The translations under genes were made by a program, and so were the position numbers. A stretch of 64,000 nucleotides of DNA from a virus, in the IMG/VR virus record IMGVR_UViG_3300036399_001951, positions 32,001 through 96,000 of that record. One strand, written 5' to 3'. Below are positions 46,508 through 49,781 of the stretch, in pieces. The first letter of the stretch is position 1, and the number at the start of each line of letters is the position of its first letter. The notes under the pieces were generated by a model that was not told where the DNA came from, made no database searches, and saw only the letters and a list, made by a program, of their open reading frames with translations.

Positions 46508-47518
46508 ATGAAGAGAGTAGCTATAACCTCAGTATTTGCCAATCTTACCTATAATGATAAAAATCATAGAGGGCTCGAGGCAATGTTTTTTAAAAAAATG
46601 ATGGAGGAGAATGGGGCCCATGTTGATTGTGTTGGATATAAAAACCGTAATGTTCAAGACCTTGACTTTTACATTGATTATAATGATACTGATTTTTCTG
46701 AATACGGAGCAGTTATACTTCAATTAAGTACTGCTAATTTTTTCGGTGGACAGATGGGAGAACATTGCGAAAAGATATGTAATGATCTTGCTAAATATAC
46801 CGGAAAGATTTATATGCTAGTAAATGATCCTAGAATTCCTCCTATGAATTATGCTAAAGTGATTAGCGAAAGATTTAATCTATGCAATGATTCAGTTGAG
46901 GCATGGGATAAAATTATCGAAAATGCAACCTATCTTTTTTCAGGTAAAGATGTATCTAAGTATCTAGGGTGGAATCCTAAGAATTGGAAGCAATTGGATT
47001 GGTTTACTTATATATTCAAGCATCGATTCACTCAGGATGATTCTATTGATCTCTGGGAATCTTCTAATCAAGATTCAGATAAAGAATGGGATCTTGTCTA
47101 TTATGGAGATAAAAGAGGATCCTTTAGAGAAAATCAAATTAGAAAATATTTTCCATCTGATACCAATAATTTATTAATTGGATATAAATCAGATAAAGTT
47201 CCGGCTACATTCATGAAGAAGCTGCAACACTCCGACCTAATGAAAGAATTAGACAAAGTAAAAGTATCCCTAATAACTGGCGATGAGGAACATCTTAATA
47301 ATGTCACTACTTATAGATTTTATGAGACCCTTGCCTCTAATTGTCTGGCTGCGATTCAAATTGAATATGATCCAGAAAAAAGACTAATTCAAGACCCAGT
47401 TTTAAGAGATCTATTATATGTTAAGAATCAAAAAGACATTAAGAAACTAATTGATGCATGGTCTCCTGAATTAATTAATAGACAAAAAGCAGAACTTAGA
47501 AGAATTTTTAATATATAA
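46508..47518 (+). CDS. bgt: DNA beta-glucosyltransferase (T4 Bgt-like)
   Basis: NFFGG, KYTGKIYMLVNDPRIP, DLVYYGDKRGSFRE, LITGD...NNVTTYRFYETLASN collinear with T4 Bgt motifs. Confidence 0.8.
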   Translation: MKRVAITSVFANLTYNDKNHRGLEAMFFKKMMEENGAHVDCVGYKNRNVQDLDFYIDYNDTDFSEYGAVILQLSTANFFGGQMGEHCEKICNDLAKYTGKIYMLVNDPRIPPMNYAKVISERFNLCNDSVEAWDKIIENATYLFSGKDVSKYLGWNPKNWKQLDWFTYIFKHRFTQDDSIDLWESSNQDSDKEWDLVYYGDKRGSFRENQIRKYFPSDTNNLLIGYKSDKVPATFMKKLQHSDLMKELDKVKVSLITGDEEHLNNVTTYRFYETLASNCLAAIQIEYDPEKRLIQDPVLRDLLYVKNQKDIKKLIDAWSPELINRQKAELRRIFNI

Positions 47519-47591
47519 CAATAATAAATAACTGAGATGAAGATAAAAATTAATCCATCTGGTTCTCCGCCACATAGCTTCTTGTTAAGTT

Positions 47592-47786
47592 ATGAAAATG
47601 CGAGAGCATCGTTGGCTTTGGAGAGTCAACTGGGTCCATCTTAATGGATACCAAGCCCCAACTAGGACGGTTGAGGCTAAAACCAGAAAGGAAGCAATGA
47701 AACTTGCTAAAGAATCTTCTAGACTTGCGGATTTTCCGAAGAGCTGGAGATTCATCCTAACTAAACTATGGAAAGGGGACGAATAG
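47592..47786 (+). CDS. Small basic protein embedded in the structured RNA
   Basis: 64 aa with VEAKTRKEAMKLA, a pattern common in small phage proteins; stop codon lies in the terminator hairpin. Confidence 0.5.
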   Translation: MKMREHRWLWRVNWVHLNGYQAPTRTVEAKTRKEAMKLAKESSRLADFPKSWRFILTKLWKGDE

Positions 47787-47798
47787 TCCCCTTTTTTT
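47772..47798 (+). terminator. Rho-independent terminator
   Basis: AAAGGGGAC-gaata-GTCCCCTTTTTTT. Confidence 0.85.
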
Positions 47799-47828
47799 AG
47801 ATAAATAATAAAAATACTGTTTGTTCAA

Positions 47829-49781
47829 ATGCGTCATATACAGCCTTATGCAAATGATTTTATATTCGAATCAAATAATTTAGATAAATATTTTCCGGGC
47901 TTACCTGCTCTATTATATAGAGCGTCCAATGTTGATATAATATTAGAAGAGGGTAGAAATTTAAATCATATTGAATCCGTTATTCCAGAAGATATTCTAC
48001 TTGAAGCTGAATTAAATATGCTTCTTCATGAAGGATCAGCTGCAGTTACTAATTATCATAAAAATCTAGCGATTGGCAAAAACGTATTAGTTGAAAGCCT
48101 GGCTAATTCTATTCCGAAAGAGATAAAAGAAGCCTTTAATAAATTACAAAGAGAATTTAAAAAACTAAATAAAAGTCAGGTAAATAAAATATTTGAAGAG
48201 GCTGAGGCTAAATTAAATGCATCAGGCATGGATATCCCAACTGATTTTAAAGGAAAAGACGCGGCATTAAATGTATCCGGAATGGATATCCCAACTGATG
48301 CCGATGATGTTTCATCTGAATTCGAAAAAGATTTCCAAGACGTCATGAAAGGCATTGAATCAAATCACGACTTTGCTGCTCAAGTTCAACCTGGAGAGAG
48401 ACCTATATTATCTATTTTAAAAAATTTATGGAATGCATTAACAGAAGGTGGAAGTGCTATTGGAGTATTCCAATTTATATTAGATATAGTTGGCCTAGTA
48501 GGTAGCTTTTTTGAACCTATTGGAATGGTTGCTGATGCAATCAACGCTATCATCTATATGGTTAGAGGAAAATGGATGCTTGCTATAATCTGTGTAATTG
48601 CTGCAATAATTCCATTAGGTGGAGATATTATTAAAGGATTCTTTAAAGCAGGAACTAAGGCAGCTAAGCCGGTTATGGACATTGGCACCGTATACTTCTC
48701 AGCTGCAGGTAGAGCAACAGTCGGTTCAGCTACAATTTCTAAGGAAGTAGTTGAACTGGCGGCCAAAGCCTCTCCGGATAGTATTAAGGCTCTTAATTAT
48801 ATCGGAGCAAGTACAGGTCCTGCGGTTACTGGATTTATGAAATACGTAAAAGGTTTCTTTGATAAGTTTTTAGCATCAGTAGTTGGATGGATTCCTTTCA
48901 TTGGTAAGCCGCTAAGGTCTTTCTTTGAAGGAATTGGAAATATAATTGCTCAATTTGCAGGTAAGGCTACTAATTTTGCAAATGATATTCCTCAAATAAC
49001 AGCACAGGCACAGGCTAAGGTGCTAGATGATTTCTTTGCTGCAACTGCAGTTCAAGGTGCGGAAATTACAGCAAAGGGAGATAAATTAGTTGTTAAGAAT
49101 GCTAACGGAATCGTGGAGCTACCTGGAAATGTATTGAAGCATTCTGATATGTTGGCTAGCCGATATGGTAATCAACTATCTAACAATATATTAAAGCAGG
49201 TAGATAACAACGTTGCCGCTTTTTATACTTCAATGTCAAATGTTATTGGAAAAACAAGTAGTCAATATGGAAACCTTCAGAGATTTGGTAGAGGGGCAGT
49301 TAATACCTTTGTATTTACTAAAAAATTGCCTCTATTCATAGGTAAACAGGTTTTAAAATGGATTTCAGGAGATCCTACTCAGCAATTTACGGATTCCGAA
49401 TATGAGGCATGGGGAACTGCTGCCTTAAGTGATATGGCTCGTCAAAGAAGAGATAGGAACTTGGAAGAAAACCCAGATGCGTTTTATGATGTTCCAGTAT
49501 TCGATGGATTAGAGGACGATGAATTCACTAGAGTTGGAACTAAAGTCTTAAATGACTATGCTGAGAAATTTAATCTTCCAAGCATAGGCATGGTTGGTTA
49601 CTATACTCGTGGAGAAAAGGATAAATTACCAGAGGATGTAGAGAAATTCTACAATTCATGCTATGCTGATAGAGTAGGAAGTGGAATGTTACAGGATATG
49701 GAAAATTTTAGAGACGAAACTGGTATATTTGAATCTAAGCGTTCAGCTGGGATGAAGTATATTAAACCTTTTATTATTTAA
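47829..49781 (+). CDS. Tagged protein with a pre-toxin-TG-like hydrophobic hairpin
   Basis: LDIVGLVG..EPIGMVADAINAIIYMVRGKWMLAIICVIAAIIPLGGD. Confidence 0.55.
   Translation: MRHIQPYANDFIFESNNLDKYFPGLPALLYRASNVDIILEEGRNLNHIESVIPEDILLEAELNMLLHEGSAAVTNYHKNLAIGKNVLVESLANSIPKEIKEAFNKLQREFKKLNKSQVNKIFEEAEAKLNASGMDIPTDFKGKDAALNVSGMDIPTDADDVSSEFEKDFQDVMKGIESNHDFAAQVQPGERPILSILKNLWNALTEGGSAIGVFQFILDIVGLVGSFFEPIGMVADAINAIIYMVRGKWMLAIICVIAAIIPLGGDIIKGFFKAGTKAAKPVMDIGTVYFSAAGRATVGSATISKEVVELAAKASPDSIKALNYIGASTGPAVTGFMKYVKGFFDKFLASVVGWIPFIGKPLRSFFEGIGNIIAQFAGKATNFANDIPQITAQAQAKVLDDFFAATAVQGAEITAKGDKLVVKNANGIVELPGNVLKHSDMLASRYGNQLSNNILKQVDNNVAAFYTSMSNVIGKTSSQYGNLQRFGRGAVNTFVFTKKLPLFIGKQVLKWISGDPTQQFTDSEYEAWGTAALSDMARQRRDRNLEENPDAFYDVPVFDGLEDDEFTRVGTKVLNDYAEKFNLPSIGMVGYYTRGEKDKLPEDVEKFYNSCYADRVGSGMLQDMENFRDETGIFESKRSAGMKYIKPFII

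What the first reader, a model, noticed from the sequence alone, without database searches (positions are those of the whole stretch)
47531..47798. Self-contained GC-enriched cassette folding into a six-way junction RNA that hides its own ORF
Seen in sequence: TCTGGTT (47558-64) pairs with AACCAGA (47681-87) and encloses five hairpins. These are CATAGCTT/AAGTTATG (47573-94), ATGC-GAGA-GCAT (47598-609, GNRA loop), GTTGGCTT/GAGTCAAC (47611-30), TGGGTCCAT/ATGGATACCA (47631-53) and AGCCCCAACT/GGTTGAGGCT (47654-78); the last three abut with no linker. AGCAA/TTGCT (47693-708), a long stem at 47712-53 and a terminator follow. An ATAAATA motif lies at 47524. Both ATGs of the 64-aa ORF sit inside stems and its stop lies in the terminator hairpin. 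Inference: this is an undescribed late structured RNA (ncRNA, dual-function RNA or translationally locked mRNA). I cannot match it to a known family.
Basis: partly seen in the sequence, partly recalled or inferred. Interest (0 to 1): 0.78.

Follow-up and report, generated by a model that had tools for sequence, protein, structure and literature searches.

The report
Small phage gene with self-locking mRNA
The cassette is a real small phage protein gene whose messenger RNA folds into conserved hairpins that bury its own start codon, probably opened by a ribosome translating a tiny upstream leader, which is a phage version of a control switch best known from antibiotic-resistance genes.

Summary
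The 268-nt stretch folds far better than shuffles (z -4.83). It is not a non-coding RNA. The 64-aa ORF (47592-47786) belongs to a phage-only family of small basic proteins: 121 cluster representatives at E<=1e-3, dN/dS 0.09-0.45, confident AlphaFold model. The mRNA is also under structural selection. Three abutting hairpins in codons 7-29 are kept by compensatory changes. They are much more stable than synonymous recoding allows (mean z -3.4, 23 of 26 below -2). A hairpin burying the AUG recurs in 25 of 26 homologs despite unrelated sequences. In 21 of 26 a 6-11-codon leader ORF ends at the foot of that hairpin, usually in Pro or Gly plus TGA/TAG. That fits erm/cat-like translation attenuation or coupling. 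The closing stem of the proposed "six-way junction" is not conserved. In this window the leader keeps Ser-Pro-Pro at the hairpin foot but has lost its stop. Close relatives lack the cassette at this site. In 16 of 26 loci scanned, homologs sit in phage tRNA arrays. The protein's function is unknown.

The parts
47524..47531 (+). Promoter-like motif ATAAATAA, 6 nt upstream of the leader ATG
   Evidence: Sequence. The motif is enriched in the window (36 matches against 19.6 +/- 3.8 in shuffles, 0 of 100 as high). A second copy at 47801-08 precedes the next gene. Promoter function is inferred and was not shown.
47537..47644 (+). Leader / upstream ORF. In this window it is 35 codons long. Ser-Pro-Pro (47564-72) sits directly 5' of the start hairpin. 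The frame then runs across the main AUG and stops in the loop of hairpin 2.
   Evidence: ORF list and positions. Homologs have a 6-11-codon leader that ends at this spot (21 of 26). Only the window and L012 lack that stop.
47573..47594 (+). Start-codon hairpin CATAGCTT / AAGTTATG. Its 3' arm contains ATG 47592-94.
   Evidence: -6.3 kcal/mol locally, z -2.05, all three AUG bases paired. An equivalent hairpin is present in 25 of 26 homologs.
47592..47786 (+). CDS of a 64-aa basic protein (net charge +8, pI 10.5) from a phage small-protein family of unknown function
47598..47609 (+). Mini-hairpin ATGC-GAGA-GCAT containing the second ATG. It is weak, and neither the MFE nor the centroid forms it.
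   Evidence: Sequence and fold. Conservation was not formally tested.
47611..47630 (+). Hairpin 1 (codons 7-13, loop over the Leu-Trp-Arg codons)
   Evidence: 88.5% of cells paired in 25 sequences, and 5 of 8 pairs changed on both sides. RNAalifold also keeps it.
47631..47653 (+). Hairpin 2 (codons 14-21, with a bulged A)
   Evidence: 83.1% of cells paired, and 3 of 9 pairs changed on both sides. The third base of the invariant Gly codon covaries with the variable residue that follows Trp.
47654..47678 (+). Hairpin 3 (codons 21-29). The outer GCC/GGC stem is constant and the inner stem shifts register between homologs.
   Evidence: 58.2% of cells paired in the window's register and 74.9% in the majority register, with covariation 0.267 against 0.163 in shuffles.
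47558..47687 (+). Closing stem TCTGGTT (47558-64) / AACCAGA (47681-87). It is present here but not conserved, and its 5' strand lies inside the leader ORF.
   Evidence: Centroid fold. Only 42.7% of cells are paired in A3, and the duplex test gives mean z -0.45 with 4 of 23 below -1.
47693..47753 (+). 3' coding-region stems: AGCAA/TTGCT and the long imperfect stem
   Evidence: Fold. Conservation is partial: helices 9-11 have 57.6-78.3% of cells paired.
47775..47798 (+). Terminator-like hairpin GGGGAC-GAATA-GTCCCC followed by T7. The stop codon TAG 47784-86 lies inside it.
   Evidence: Sequence and fold. The same element at 89-93% identity follows the glucosyltransferase gene in the cassette-less L001-L003. 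The consensus scanner reported no terminator here.

Best explanation
The cassette is a small, movable, protein-coding unit. It encodes a 64-aa basic alpha/beta protein of a phage-only family. Its mRNA carries a conserved cis-acting fold that keeps the gene translationally shut unless a ribosome is working on a short leader ORF just upstream.

Shown by comparison:
- The peptide is under purifying selection.
- A hairpin buries the AUG in nearly all homologs, although the arm sequences are unrelated.
- In most homologs a 6-11-codon leader ORF ends exactly at the 5' foot of that hairpin. It usually ends in Pro or Gly followed by TGA or TAG rather than TAA.
- Three abutting hairpins in codons 7-29 are kept by compensatory and synonymous changes on the sense strand.

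Inferred:
- A ribosome that pauses or terminates slowly at the end of the leader covers and melts the 5' arm of the hairpin. The AUG 14-28 nt downstream is then free for a new initiation or for re-initiation by the same ribosome. This is cat/erm-type translation attenuation, or obligatory translational coupling.
- The coding-region hairpins keep the otherwise untranslated mRNA compact and nuclease-resistant.

In this window the leader keeps its Ser-Pro-Pro codons directly at the hairpin foot, but it has lost the stop and reads on across the main AUG. Here a pause at Pro-Pro would have to do the job, or the switch may be partly decayed.
For: Coding:
- Homologs at 98, 83 and 77% identity, and further loci at 39-73%.
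- In-frame indels.
- dN/dS is 0.09-0.45 in every pair whose dS is not saturated, and variable columns number 32/33/54 of 62 at codon positions 1/2/3.
- 121 cluster representatives at E<=1e-3 and 58 at <=1e-10.
- AlphaFold2 with a 76-sequence alignment gives pLDDT 84.

RNA inside the CDS:
- On the gap-free alignment A6, hairpin 1 has 88.5% and hairpin 2 has 83.1% of cells paired.
- Fourteen of 26 pairs changed on both sides. Covariation is 0.247 against 0.143 in shuffles (0 of 500 as high) and 0.064-0.132 when the partners are slid.
- The 75-nt hairpin block is more stable than 300 synonymous recodings. The mean z is -3.43, 23 of 26 are below -2, and the window scores -28.0 against -13.8 kcal/mol (z -4.66).
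- Frequent G-U pairs fit only the sense strand, for example U-G in 22 of 25 sequences at columns 15-20 and G-U in 11 of 25 at columns 31-46.

Start hairpin:
- Mean local MFE is -7.8 in 23 homologs against -2.1 at 217 other ORF starts of the same loci (Mann-Whitney p 4e-12).

Leader:
- A hairpin with an abutting ATG-initiated uORF of 4-20 codons occurs in 21 of 26 family genes, and 18 of those leaders end in Gly or Pro.
- Among 246 control ORFs 4 passed the same test. Three of these turned out to be family genes, which leaves 1 of 243 unrelated ORFs.
- In the six NKSPG leaders, the differences in the last five codons are all at third positions (AAC/AAT, CCA/CCT/CCC, GGT/GGC).
- Leader stop codons are TAA in 3 of 21, against 142 of 195 long ORFs in the same loci.
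- The gap from the leader stop to the AUG is 14-28 nt in 20 of 21 leaders.

Precedent:
- erm leader stalling destabilises an inhibitory stem-loop (abstracts of PMC5118997 and PMC11264731, seen in the listing).
- Most known arrest peptides are encoded in uORFs, and TnaC blocks termination (passages of PMC11890864).
Against: - No expression or translation data exist. Lake metatranscriptome contigs cover the neighbouring genes but not the cassette, which decides nothing.
- The window's own leader, and that of its closest relative L012, lacks the stop at the hairpin foot. The canonical geometry is therefore absent in the copy under study.
- Five of 26 homologs fail the uORF test: the window, L012, L018, L028 and L038. 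L038 has only a non-ATG candidate, seen by eye.
- Homologs are phylogenetically related, so the counts are not independent. I count about 13 distinct leader lineages.
- The three coding-region hairpins are not explained by the leader model, and their proposed role (stability or insulation) is a guess.
- Slow termination after Pro or Gly, and the reach of the ribosomal helicase, are recalled from the literature and were not tested here. For the Pro-stop work I saw only reference-list titles.
- The host and its mode of translation initiation are unknown.
Confidence: 0.5

Rival explanations
1. The fold is only a stability or processing element. It makes a small mRNA, usually cut out of long tRNA-array transcripts, compact and resistant to RNases. 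The leader ORFs have no regulatory role.
For: Sixteen of 26 loci scanned have same-strand tRNA genes within about 250 nt of the gene. The structure extends well beyond what is needed to hide an AUG. The whole CDS folds better than shuffles in all 10 homologs tested (z -1.5 to -3.3).
Against: This does not explain why the leader stop abuts the hairpin foot in 21 of 26 homologs against 1 of 243 controls. It also does not explain the Pro/Gly ends, the avoidance of TAA, or the synonymous-only variation in the leader.
Confidence: 0.2
2. The fold is an autoregulatory operator. The small basic protein binds hairpins 1-3 of its own mRNA, and perhaps tRNA-like RNAs, and represses its own translation, as ribosomal proteins and T4 RegA or gp32 do.
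For: The family is basic: median net charge +5, and 63 of 76 members have pI above 9. Weak fold resemblance to ribosomal proteins eL20/LX (Z 5.2-6.0). The hairpins start where the footprint of an initiating ribosome would end.
Against: The fold matches are in the non-specific range (best Z 7.2 to PaaB, and similar scores to anti-CRISPRs and T7 Gp2). The stems vary freely in sequence, and the only constant loop is fixed by the Leu-Trp-Arg codons. No binding test was possible.
Confidence: 0.12
3. It is a dual-function RNA. Besides coding, the hairpin block acts in trans, for example as a decoy for a host RNA-binding or RNA-cutting factor.
For: Structure selection inside a CDS is strong and reaches down to 39% protein identity (L052). 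No known RNA family matches.
Against: No conserved unpaired sequence exists apart from what the peptide dictates. The distant subfamily (L050, L051) folds the same codons differently. No abundant RNA was seen, although the coverage was too low to judge.
Confidence: 0.1
4. It is a pure non-coding RNA and the ORF is fortuitous.
For: High fold z-score. The ORF has no Pfam or PHROG match.
Against: dN/dS is below 0.5 with saturated synonymous sites, third-position variability is in excess, indels are in frame, the family has 121 clusters, and the AlphaFold model is confident.
Confidence: 0.02
5. The inverted repeats act at the DNA level as recombination or mobility signals of the cassette.
For: The cassette is present or absent at the same site in related phages and occurs in at least three genomic contexts. 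The minus strand also folds well in this window (z -4.54).
Against: Many conserved G-U pairs would be A-C mismatches on the other strand. The repeats lie inside the gene and not at the cassette's ends. The element is single-copy in the 136.7-kb record.
Confidence: 0.03

Closest known systems
Leader-peptide translation attenuation of cat-86/cmlA and ermC-type resistance genes
   Same: A short leader ORF sits on the same transcript. A hairpin sequesters the translation start of the downstream gene. The leader's pause site is placed so that the ribosome would melt the 5' arm. The geometry is shown, and the precedent is in abstracts seen.
   Different: No antibiotic or other inducer is known. The AUG itself is buried, not a Shine-Dalgarno site. 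The likely pause is at termination after Pro or Gly with a weak stop. The setting is uncultured phages, often inside tRNA arrays. Three further conserved hairpins lie inside the regulated CDS. The window's own copy lacks the leader stop.
Arrest peptides that act at termination (TnaC, PepNL)
   Same: These are short uORFs whose ribosome stalls on the stop codon and thereby controls a downstream gene (passages of PMC11890864). The leaders here end in Pro or Gly followed by TGA or TAG.
   Different: TnaC and PepNL act through Rho or transcription or other routes, and they have longer, specific peptides. The leaders here are 6-11 residues with little conserved beyond the last 2-5. Stalling is inferred and was not shown.
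hok/mok-type locked mRNAs of type I toxin-antitoxin systems
   Same: These are compact, translationally inert mRNAs of a small protein, whose translation depends on an overlapping upstream reading frame. In the window and L012 the leader frame overlaps the main start in the way mok overlaps hok. This comparison is recalled from memory.
   Different: The protein here is soluble and basic, with no hydrophobic segment (longest hydrophobic run 3 residues; alpha/beta model). No antisense RNA was looked for. I do not file the element as a member of this group.
Translational coupling by hairpin opening in RNA phage MS2 (coat gene to replicase or lysis gene)
   Same: The downstream start is closed by RNA structure and is opened only when ribosomes translate the upstream frame. 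This comparison is recalled from memory.
   Different: That is a different virus type, with long-range pairing instead of a local hairpin, and without a dedicated mini-leader.

Membership tests
Leader-peptide translation attenuation (cat/erm type) | Short leader ORF directly upstream on the same strand | tested here: met
   ATG-initiated leaders of 6-11 codons occur in 21 of 26 homologs. The window has a leader ATG at 47537, but the frame runs for 35 codons.
Leader-peptide translation attenuation (cat/erm type) | Hairpin that sequesters the translation start of the regulated gene | tested here: met
   Present in 25 of 26 homologs, against 41 of 246 control ORF starts. In the window all three AUG bases are paired.
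Leader-peptide translation attenuation (cat/erm type) | Pause site placed so that the ribosome overlaps the hairpin's 5' arm | tested here: inconclusive
   The geometry fits. In the 21 leaders that pass the test the stop ends from 2 nt before the hairpin's 5' base to 8 nt inside its 5' arm, and in 14 of them it lies within 1 nt of that base. In the window the Pro-Pro codons 47567-72 abut the arm at 47573. Actual pausing was not measured.
Leader-peptide translation attenuation (cat/erm type) | Signal-dependent ribosome stalling that induces the downstream gene | not testable with these tools
   This needs toeprinting or reporter assays.
Any Rfam 15 RNA family | Score at or above the family's gathering threshold | tested here: not met
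   No match in the 64-kb window. In E-value mode, 6 matches in 47400-47900 were all far below gathering. The best was SraG (30.6 against 50 bits) on the minus strand over the terminator.
tRNA / tmRNA | Cloverleaf or tmRNA architecture recognised by ARAGORN | tested here: not met
   No gene found in the window.
Type I toxin (hok-like) | Small hydrophobic, membrane-inserting peptide | tested here: not met
   The longest hydrophobic run is 3 residues and the net charge is +8. The model is a soluble beta-beta-alpha-beta fold.
Intrinsic terminator | GC-rich hairpin followed by a U-tract | tested here: inconclusive
   A 6-bp GC-rich stem followed by T7 at 47775-98 is visible and is conserved in L001-L003. 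The consensus scanner listed none.
T4-type late promoter | TATAAATA box about 6 nt before the transcription start | tested here: inconclusive
   The window reads AATAAATAA (47523-31), and L012 has an exact TATAAATA with the same 6-nt spacing to the leader ATG. The motif is enriched. The consensus and spacing rule are recalled, and no transcription start data exist.
Known protein families (Pfam, PHROGs, PDB) | Significant profile or fold match | tested here: inconclusive
   Pfam and PHROGs gave nothing, even at E<=10 for Pfam. A PDB profile search gave 0 hits. Foldseek found nothing at E<=1e-3 in PDB or BFVD. The best VIA Z was 7.2, to PaaB, which is within the non-specific range.

The most novel reading that the evidence does not exclude
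The unit is a phage-borne sensor of the state of the host's translation machinery. A mini-leader ends in Pro or Gly plus a weak stop, so its ribosome dwell time depends on release-factor, EF-P or tRNA supply. That dwell gates the synthesis of a small basic protein that phages usually carry inside their tRNA arrays. The phage could then switch on a countermeasure when translation is under attack, for example by tRNA-cleaving defences. The conserved hairpins in codons 7-29 would be part of a new class of coding-region RNA element.
Probability: 0.2. Interest if true: 0.8.

Novelty: new variant of a known kind. Interest (0 to 1): 0.62.

Why it matters
Leader-peptide attenuators are textbook devices of bacterial resistance and amino-acid operons. 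I found no description of one in phages in two full-text searches. Here the comparative signal is unusually clean for an uncultured system. It combines covariation, selection on synonymous codons, leader geometry, Pro/Gly ends and weak stops. The signal attaches to an unannotated small-protein family of at least 121 clusters that is often embedded in the tRNA arrays of large phages. It gives a concrete and cheap hypothesis to test: whether leader mutations change reporter output. It also gives a handle on an unknown protein that may relate to tRNA or translation biology during infection. Finally, it is a worked example showing that a high fold z-score over an ORF can reflect both coding and structure.

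Tried and rejected
- **Rfam.** Neither mode gave a usable match.
- **blastn against phage records.** The 310-nt spacer found no match among 50,697 records.
- **Protein-level search of the same collection.** It found only two copies of one 735-kb uncultured phage record.
- **Repeats in the own genome.** The DNA is single-copy and the protein family is single-copy. The 136.7-kb record has one tRNA, far from the gene.
- **Closing stem and six-way junction.** The stem is not conserved.
- **Pairing of the upstream UCUCC motif with the GGAGA loop of hairpin 1.** Complementarity exists in about half of the homologs (11 of 23 with z below -1, mean -1.02). The motif is better explained as the Ser-Pro codons of the leader, because its variable base is a third codon position. 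I dropped the pseudoknot idea as unproven.
- **L031 (Chloroflexota MAG).** This is a 37-residue match at 38% identity inside an unrelated 116-aa frame. I treated it as false and left it out of all counts.
- **L045.** This was a pattern hit with no ORF. I left it out.
- **L021.** This is a 5'-truncated copy. I used it only for tRNA context.
- **L019, L020, L029 and L044.** They repeat L011.
- **L025 and L036.** They repeat L016.
- **L026.** It repeats L017.
- **L032.** It repeats L027.
- **L033.** It repeats L023.
- **L037 and L047.** They repeat L035.
- **L040, L041 and L042.** They repeat L030, L028 and L024 respectively.
- **L048.** It is nearly identical to L034. It was counted in the 26-sequence tests, left out of A6, and not scanned for tRNAs.
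- **RNA evidence.** Four lake metatranscriptome runs hold contigs over the two neighbouring genes (47208-47358 and 47865-48400) but none over 47519-47830, at depths of 2-4. This shows neither presence nor absence of a cassette RNA.
- **Fold searches.** They gave only generic small alpha/beta matches, and the Atlas gave only unnamed phage clusters.
- **Terminator scanner.** It listed no terminator at 47775-98, although the hairpin and the T-run are plain in the sequence.
- **Not attempted.** I did not try a covariance model or R-scape. The start-hairpin arms cannot be aligned by MAFFT, so that hairpin rests on energy and geometry tests against control ORFs and not on covariation.
- **Supplements.** Supplementary files of papers were not needed and were not opened.
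Full report
**Observation**

The window is a low-GC phage record. It is 136.7 kb and about 54% complete, and its DNA recurs in lake-water metagenomes.

The finding lies in the 310-nt spacer between two genes. Upstream is a T4-like beta-glucosyltransferase gene (46508-47518; Pfam PF09198 and PHROG 7922). Downstream is a 650-aa gene with a weak tape-measure-like match (47829-49781).

The stretch 47531-47798 folds to -89.9 kcal/mol, against -63.9 +/- 5.4 for 200 dinucleotide shuffles (z -4.83). The opposite strand gives z -4.54. GC rises to 0.445, against 0.26-0.32 around it.

Rfam gives no match at gathering thresholds in the whole window and only sub-threshold noise locally. ARAGORN finds nothing.

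**A cassette that comes and goes**

Eight viral contigs encode relatives of the glucosyltransferase at 76-87% identity.
- In L001, L003 and L005, which I read, and in L002 by BLAST only, that gene is followed after about 30 nt by a terminator hairpin and the ATAAATAATAAAAA motif of the next gene. Only the last 45 nt or so of the window's spacer are shared (89-93%).
- L006 has two other small ORFs at this site.
- L004 and L007 end too early to tell, and I did not read L008.
- The metagenome contig L012 has the same flanking genes as the window and does carry the cassette.
- L013 carries the cassette with the same terminator in another context.

About 240 nt are therefore a discrete, movable unit. 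It is single-copy in this record.

**It codes for a protein**

The 64-aa ORF (47592-47786) has homologs at 98, 83 and 77% identity. Further homologs at 39-73% lie on contigs found by peptide and DNA patterns.

The frame is open in all of them, and the indels are in frame (12- and 6-codon inserts). Among 10 sequences, every pair with unsaturated dS has dN/dS 0.09-0.45. Variable columns number 32, 33 and 54 of 62 at codon positions 1, 2 and 3.

A profile search of 1.84 billion representatives finds 121 proteins at E<=1e-3 and 58 at <=1e-10. They are 43-208 residues long and nearly all under 130. Those with a source name are called 'hypothetical protein'.

AlphaFold2 with 76 sequences gives pLDDT 84 and a beta-beta-alpha-beta fold. 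No profile or fold search assigns it:
- Pfam and PHROGs give nothing.
- The PDB profile search gives nothing.
- Foldseek finds nothing at E<=1e-3 in PDB or BFVD.
- The best VIA Z is 7.2 to PaaB. Ribosomal eL20/LX score 5.2-6.0, and AcrIE2, T7 Gp2 and Dmd score 4-5.6. All of these are in the range the tool calls non-specific.

The family is basic (median net charge +5; the window's protein is +8 with pI 10.5). It has no hydrophobic segment. The pure-ncRNA reading is therefore rejected.

**The mRNA is also under structural selection**

Twenty-five homologs align without gaps over codons 5-31 (A6). On that alignment:
- Hairpin 1 (window 47611-30) is paired in 88.5% of cells, and 5 of 8 pairs changed on both sides. 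One pair, for example, reads GC 13, CG 7 and UA 1.
- Hairpin 2 (47631-53) is paired in 83.1% of cells. The third base of the invariant Gly codon covaries with the variable residue that follows Trp (UA 12, AU 4, CG 2, UG 2).
- Overall covariation is 0.247, against 0.143 +/- 0.012 in shuffles (0 of 500 as high) and 0.064-0.132 for slid partners.

Hairpin 3 (47654-78) keeps its outer GCC/GGC pairs, and its inner stem shifts register. It is paired in 58% of cells in the window's register and 74.9% in the majority register.

I resampled synonymous codons from the loci's own codon usage. The native 75-nt block is far more stable than the resampled versions. The mean z is -3.43, 23 of 26 are below -2, and the window scores z -4.66.

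Frequent G-U pairs fit the sense strand only. RNAalifold on a wider alignment keeps exactly hairpins 1 and 2.

The distant 'VETS' subfamily (L050, L051) folds the same codons differently. The copy in a 735-kb uncultured phage, at 39% protein identity, keeps hairpins 1 and 2.

**What is not conserved**

The closing stem TCTGGTT/AACCAGA, which would make the six-way junction, is paired in only 42.7% of cells. A duplex-energy test between the upstream and downstream segments gives mean z -0.45, with 4 of 23 below -1. The 3' stems are only partly kept.

**The start-codon hairpin and the leader**

Local folds of -30..+6 around the AUG average -7.8 kcal/mol in 23 homologs. The average at 217 other ORF starts in the same loci is -2.1 (Mann-Whitney p 4e-12). 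The AUG is fully paired in 14 of the 23 and partly paired in 7 more. The arm sequences are unrelated between lineages.

Reading the upstream sequences showed a short ATG-initiated ORF that ends at the foot of this hairpin. Examples are MNKNKSPG, MKKNKSPG, MCKNKSPG, MYHNKSPG, MLNSYG, MEELKLDG, MENIHVSSG, MIILSG, METQLPCNSPP, MLERPP, MTRPMPPP, MKNRHGP, MIILKNREGP and MKNKQLKPPK.

With fixed criteria:
- 25 of 26 family genes have the hairpin.
- 21 of 26 have the hairpin plus an abutting uORF.
- 18 of 26 have a uORF that ends in Gly or Pro.
- Among 246 control ORFs the corresponding counts are 41, 4 and 3.
- Three of the four control hits proved to be family genes that were long enough to enter the control set. 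That leaves 1 of 243 unrelated ORFs, and none ending in Gly or Pro.

In the six NKSPG leaders, the differences in the last five codons are all synonymous third-position changes. Leader stops are TGA in 7, TAG in 11 and TAA in 3. Among 195 long ORFs of the same loci, 142 use TAA. The stop-to-AUG gap is 14-28 nt in 20 of 21 leaders and is almost entirely hairpin.

These counts are not independent, because the sequences are related. I see about 13 distinct leader lineages, of which 3 use TAA.

**Mechanism (inferred)**

The arrangement is that of cat/erm-type translation attenuation. There, a ribosome held on a leader ORF destabilises a stem-loop that blocks the start of the downstream gene (abstracts of PMC5118997 and PMC11264731, seen in the listing).

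Most known arrest peptides lie in uORFs, and TnaC acts by blocking termination (passages of PMC11890864). That paper's reference list cites work on C-terminal proline and tagging at termination, of which I saw only the titles. From memory, Pro and Gly before a stop slow peptide release, and the ribosome unwinds mRNA to about +11 to +13 from the P site.

A ribosome dwelling on the leader's stop would then open 5-7 bp of an 8-9 bp hairpin. That would expose the AUG for a second ribosome or for re-initiation.

The coding-region hairpins are not explained by this model. My best guess is that they keep a normally untranslated mRNA compact and nuclease-resistant, or insulate the switch. An operator for the basic protein itself is a live alternative.

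**This window's copy**

The leader ATG (47537) lies 6 nt after ATAAATAA. That motif is enriched in the window (36 matches against 19.6 expected) and is also found before the next gene. L012 has an exact TATAAATA at the same spacing. This would put the transcription start at the leader's AUG if T4-like spacing holds, which is a recalled rule.

The leader reads MKIKINPSGSPP. Pro-Pro (47567-72) sits directly at the hairpin foot (47573). Relative to L013 (NSPP-stop), the stop is out of frame, so the leader runs for 35 codons across the main AUG to a TAA in the loop of hairpin 2. L012 shows the same arrangement. L012 has also lost the main ORF's stop and the invariant Gly19, which hints at relaxed selection in this lineage.

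The switch may work here through a Pro-Pro pause, or it may be degenerate. The window's protein itself keeps all the family's near-invariant residues.

**Context**

In 16 of 26 loci scanned, the gene has same-strand tRNA genes within about 250 nt, usually on both sides. In L016 the leader ATG directly follows the tRNA's 3' end. The window's record has a single distant tRNA.

No paper describing this family or a phage leader-peptide attenuator turned up in two full-text searches. That is weak evidence of absence.

Metatranscriptome contigs show that the neighbouring genes are present in RNA libraries from lake water, but they do not cover the cassette.

**Verdict**

The element is a real small protein gene with a conserved, self-locking mRNA and a probable leader-peptide gate. 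Its mechanism is a new variant of a known kind, and it is attached to a protein family of unknown function. Confidence in the leader-gated reading is about 0.5, and interest is 0.62.

Noticed in passing
L011, L014, L016, L017, L021-L024, L034, L035, L039, L043, L046, L049-L051: Homologs of the 64-aa gene sit inside same-strand tRNA arrays of large uncultured phages. In L016 the leader ATG starts directly after the 3' end of a tRNA-Gly, which suggests a leaderless or nearly leaderless transcript after tRNA processing.
   Followed up: partly
L012:837-1064: The copy in the closest relative has lost its stop codon (TAG to TAT) and reads through the terminator's T-run. It has also replaced the family's invariant Gly19 with Arg, which suggests possible decay of the gene in this phage lineage.
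   Followed up: partly
L006:4030-4350 (L008 is probably alike but was not read): At the same site downstream of the glucosyltransferase gene, these relatives carry two other small ORFs instead of the cassette. The spot appears to be a hot spot for small inserted genes.
   Followed up: no
L039:10725-11109 (minus strand) and L014:1918-2508: ARAGORN calls a tmRNA with tag peptide ADALAFVDGELALAA inside one phage tRNA array, next to the family gene. It also makes a doubtful permuted tmRNA call in another array.
   Followed up: no
window, 36 sites including 44070, 47524, 47801 and 51300(-): ATAAATAA is nearly twice as frequent as in shuffles (36 against 19.6). It often lies just upstream of ORF starts, which fits a late-promoter-like motif.
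   Followed up: partly
family proteins P0006, P0041-P0069 and the L018, L027, L028 gene products: Many family members carry a C-terminal extension with a conserved NGKW motif that the window's protein lacks.
   Followed up: no
window 47208-47358 and 47865-48400: Lake-water metatranscriptome contigs at 99% or more identity cover parts of the glucosyltransferase gene and the downstream 650-aa gene. The phage's sequences are therefore present in RNA libraries, although DNA carry-over cannot be excluded.
   Followed up: no
L017:2940-2960: A tRNA-like T-arm and acceptor end (GGTTCGATTCCAATC...) lies directly before the leader ATG, but ARAGORN does not call it as a tRNA.
   Followed up: no
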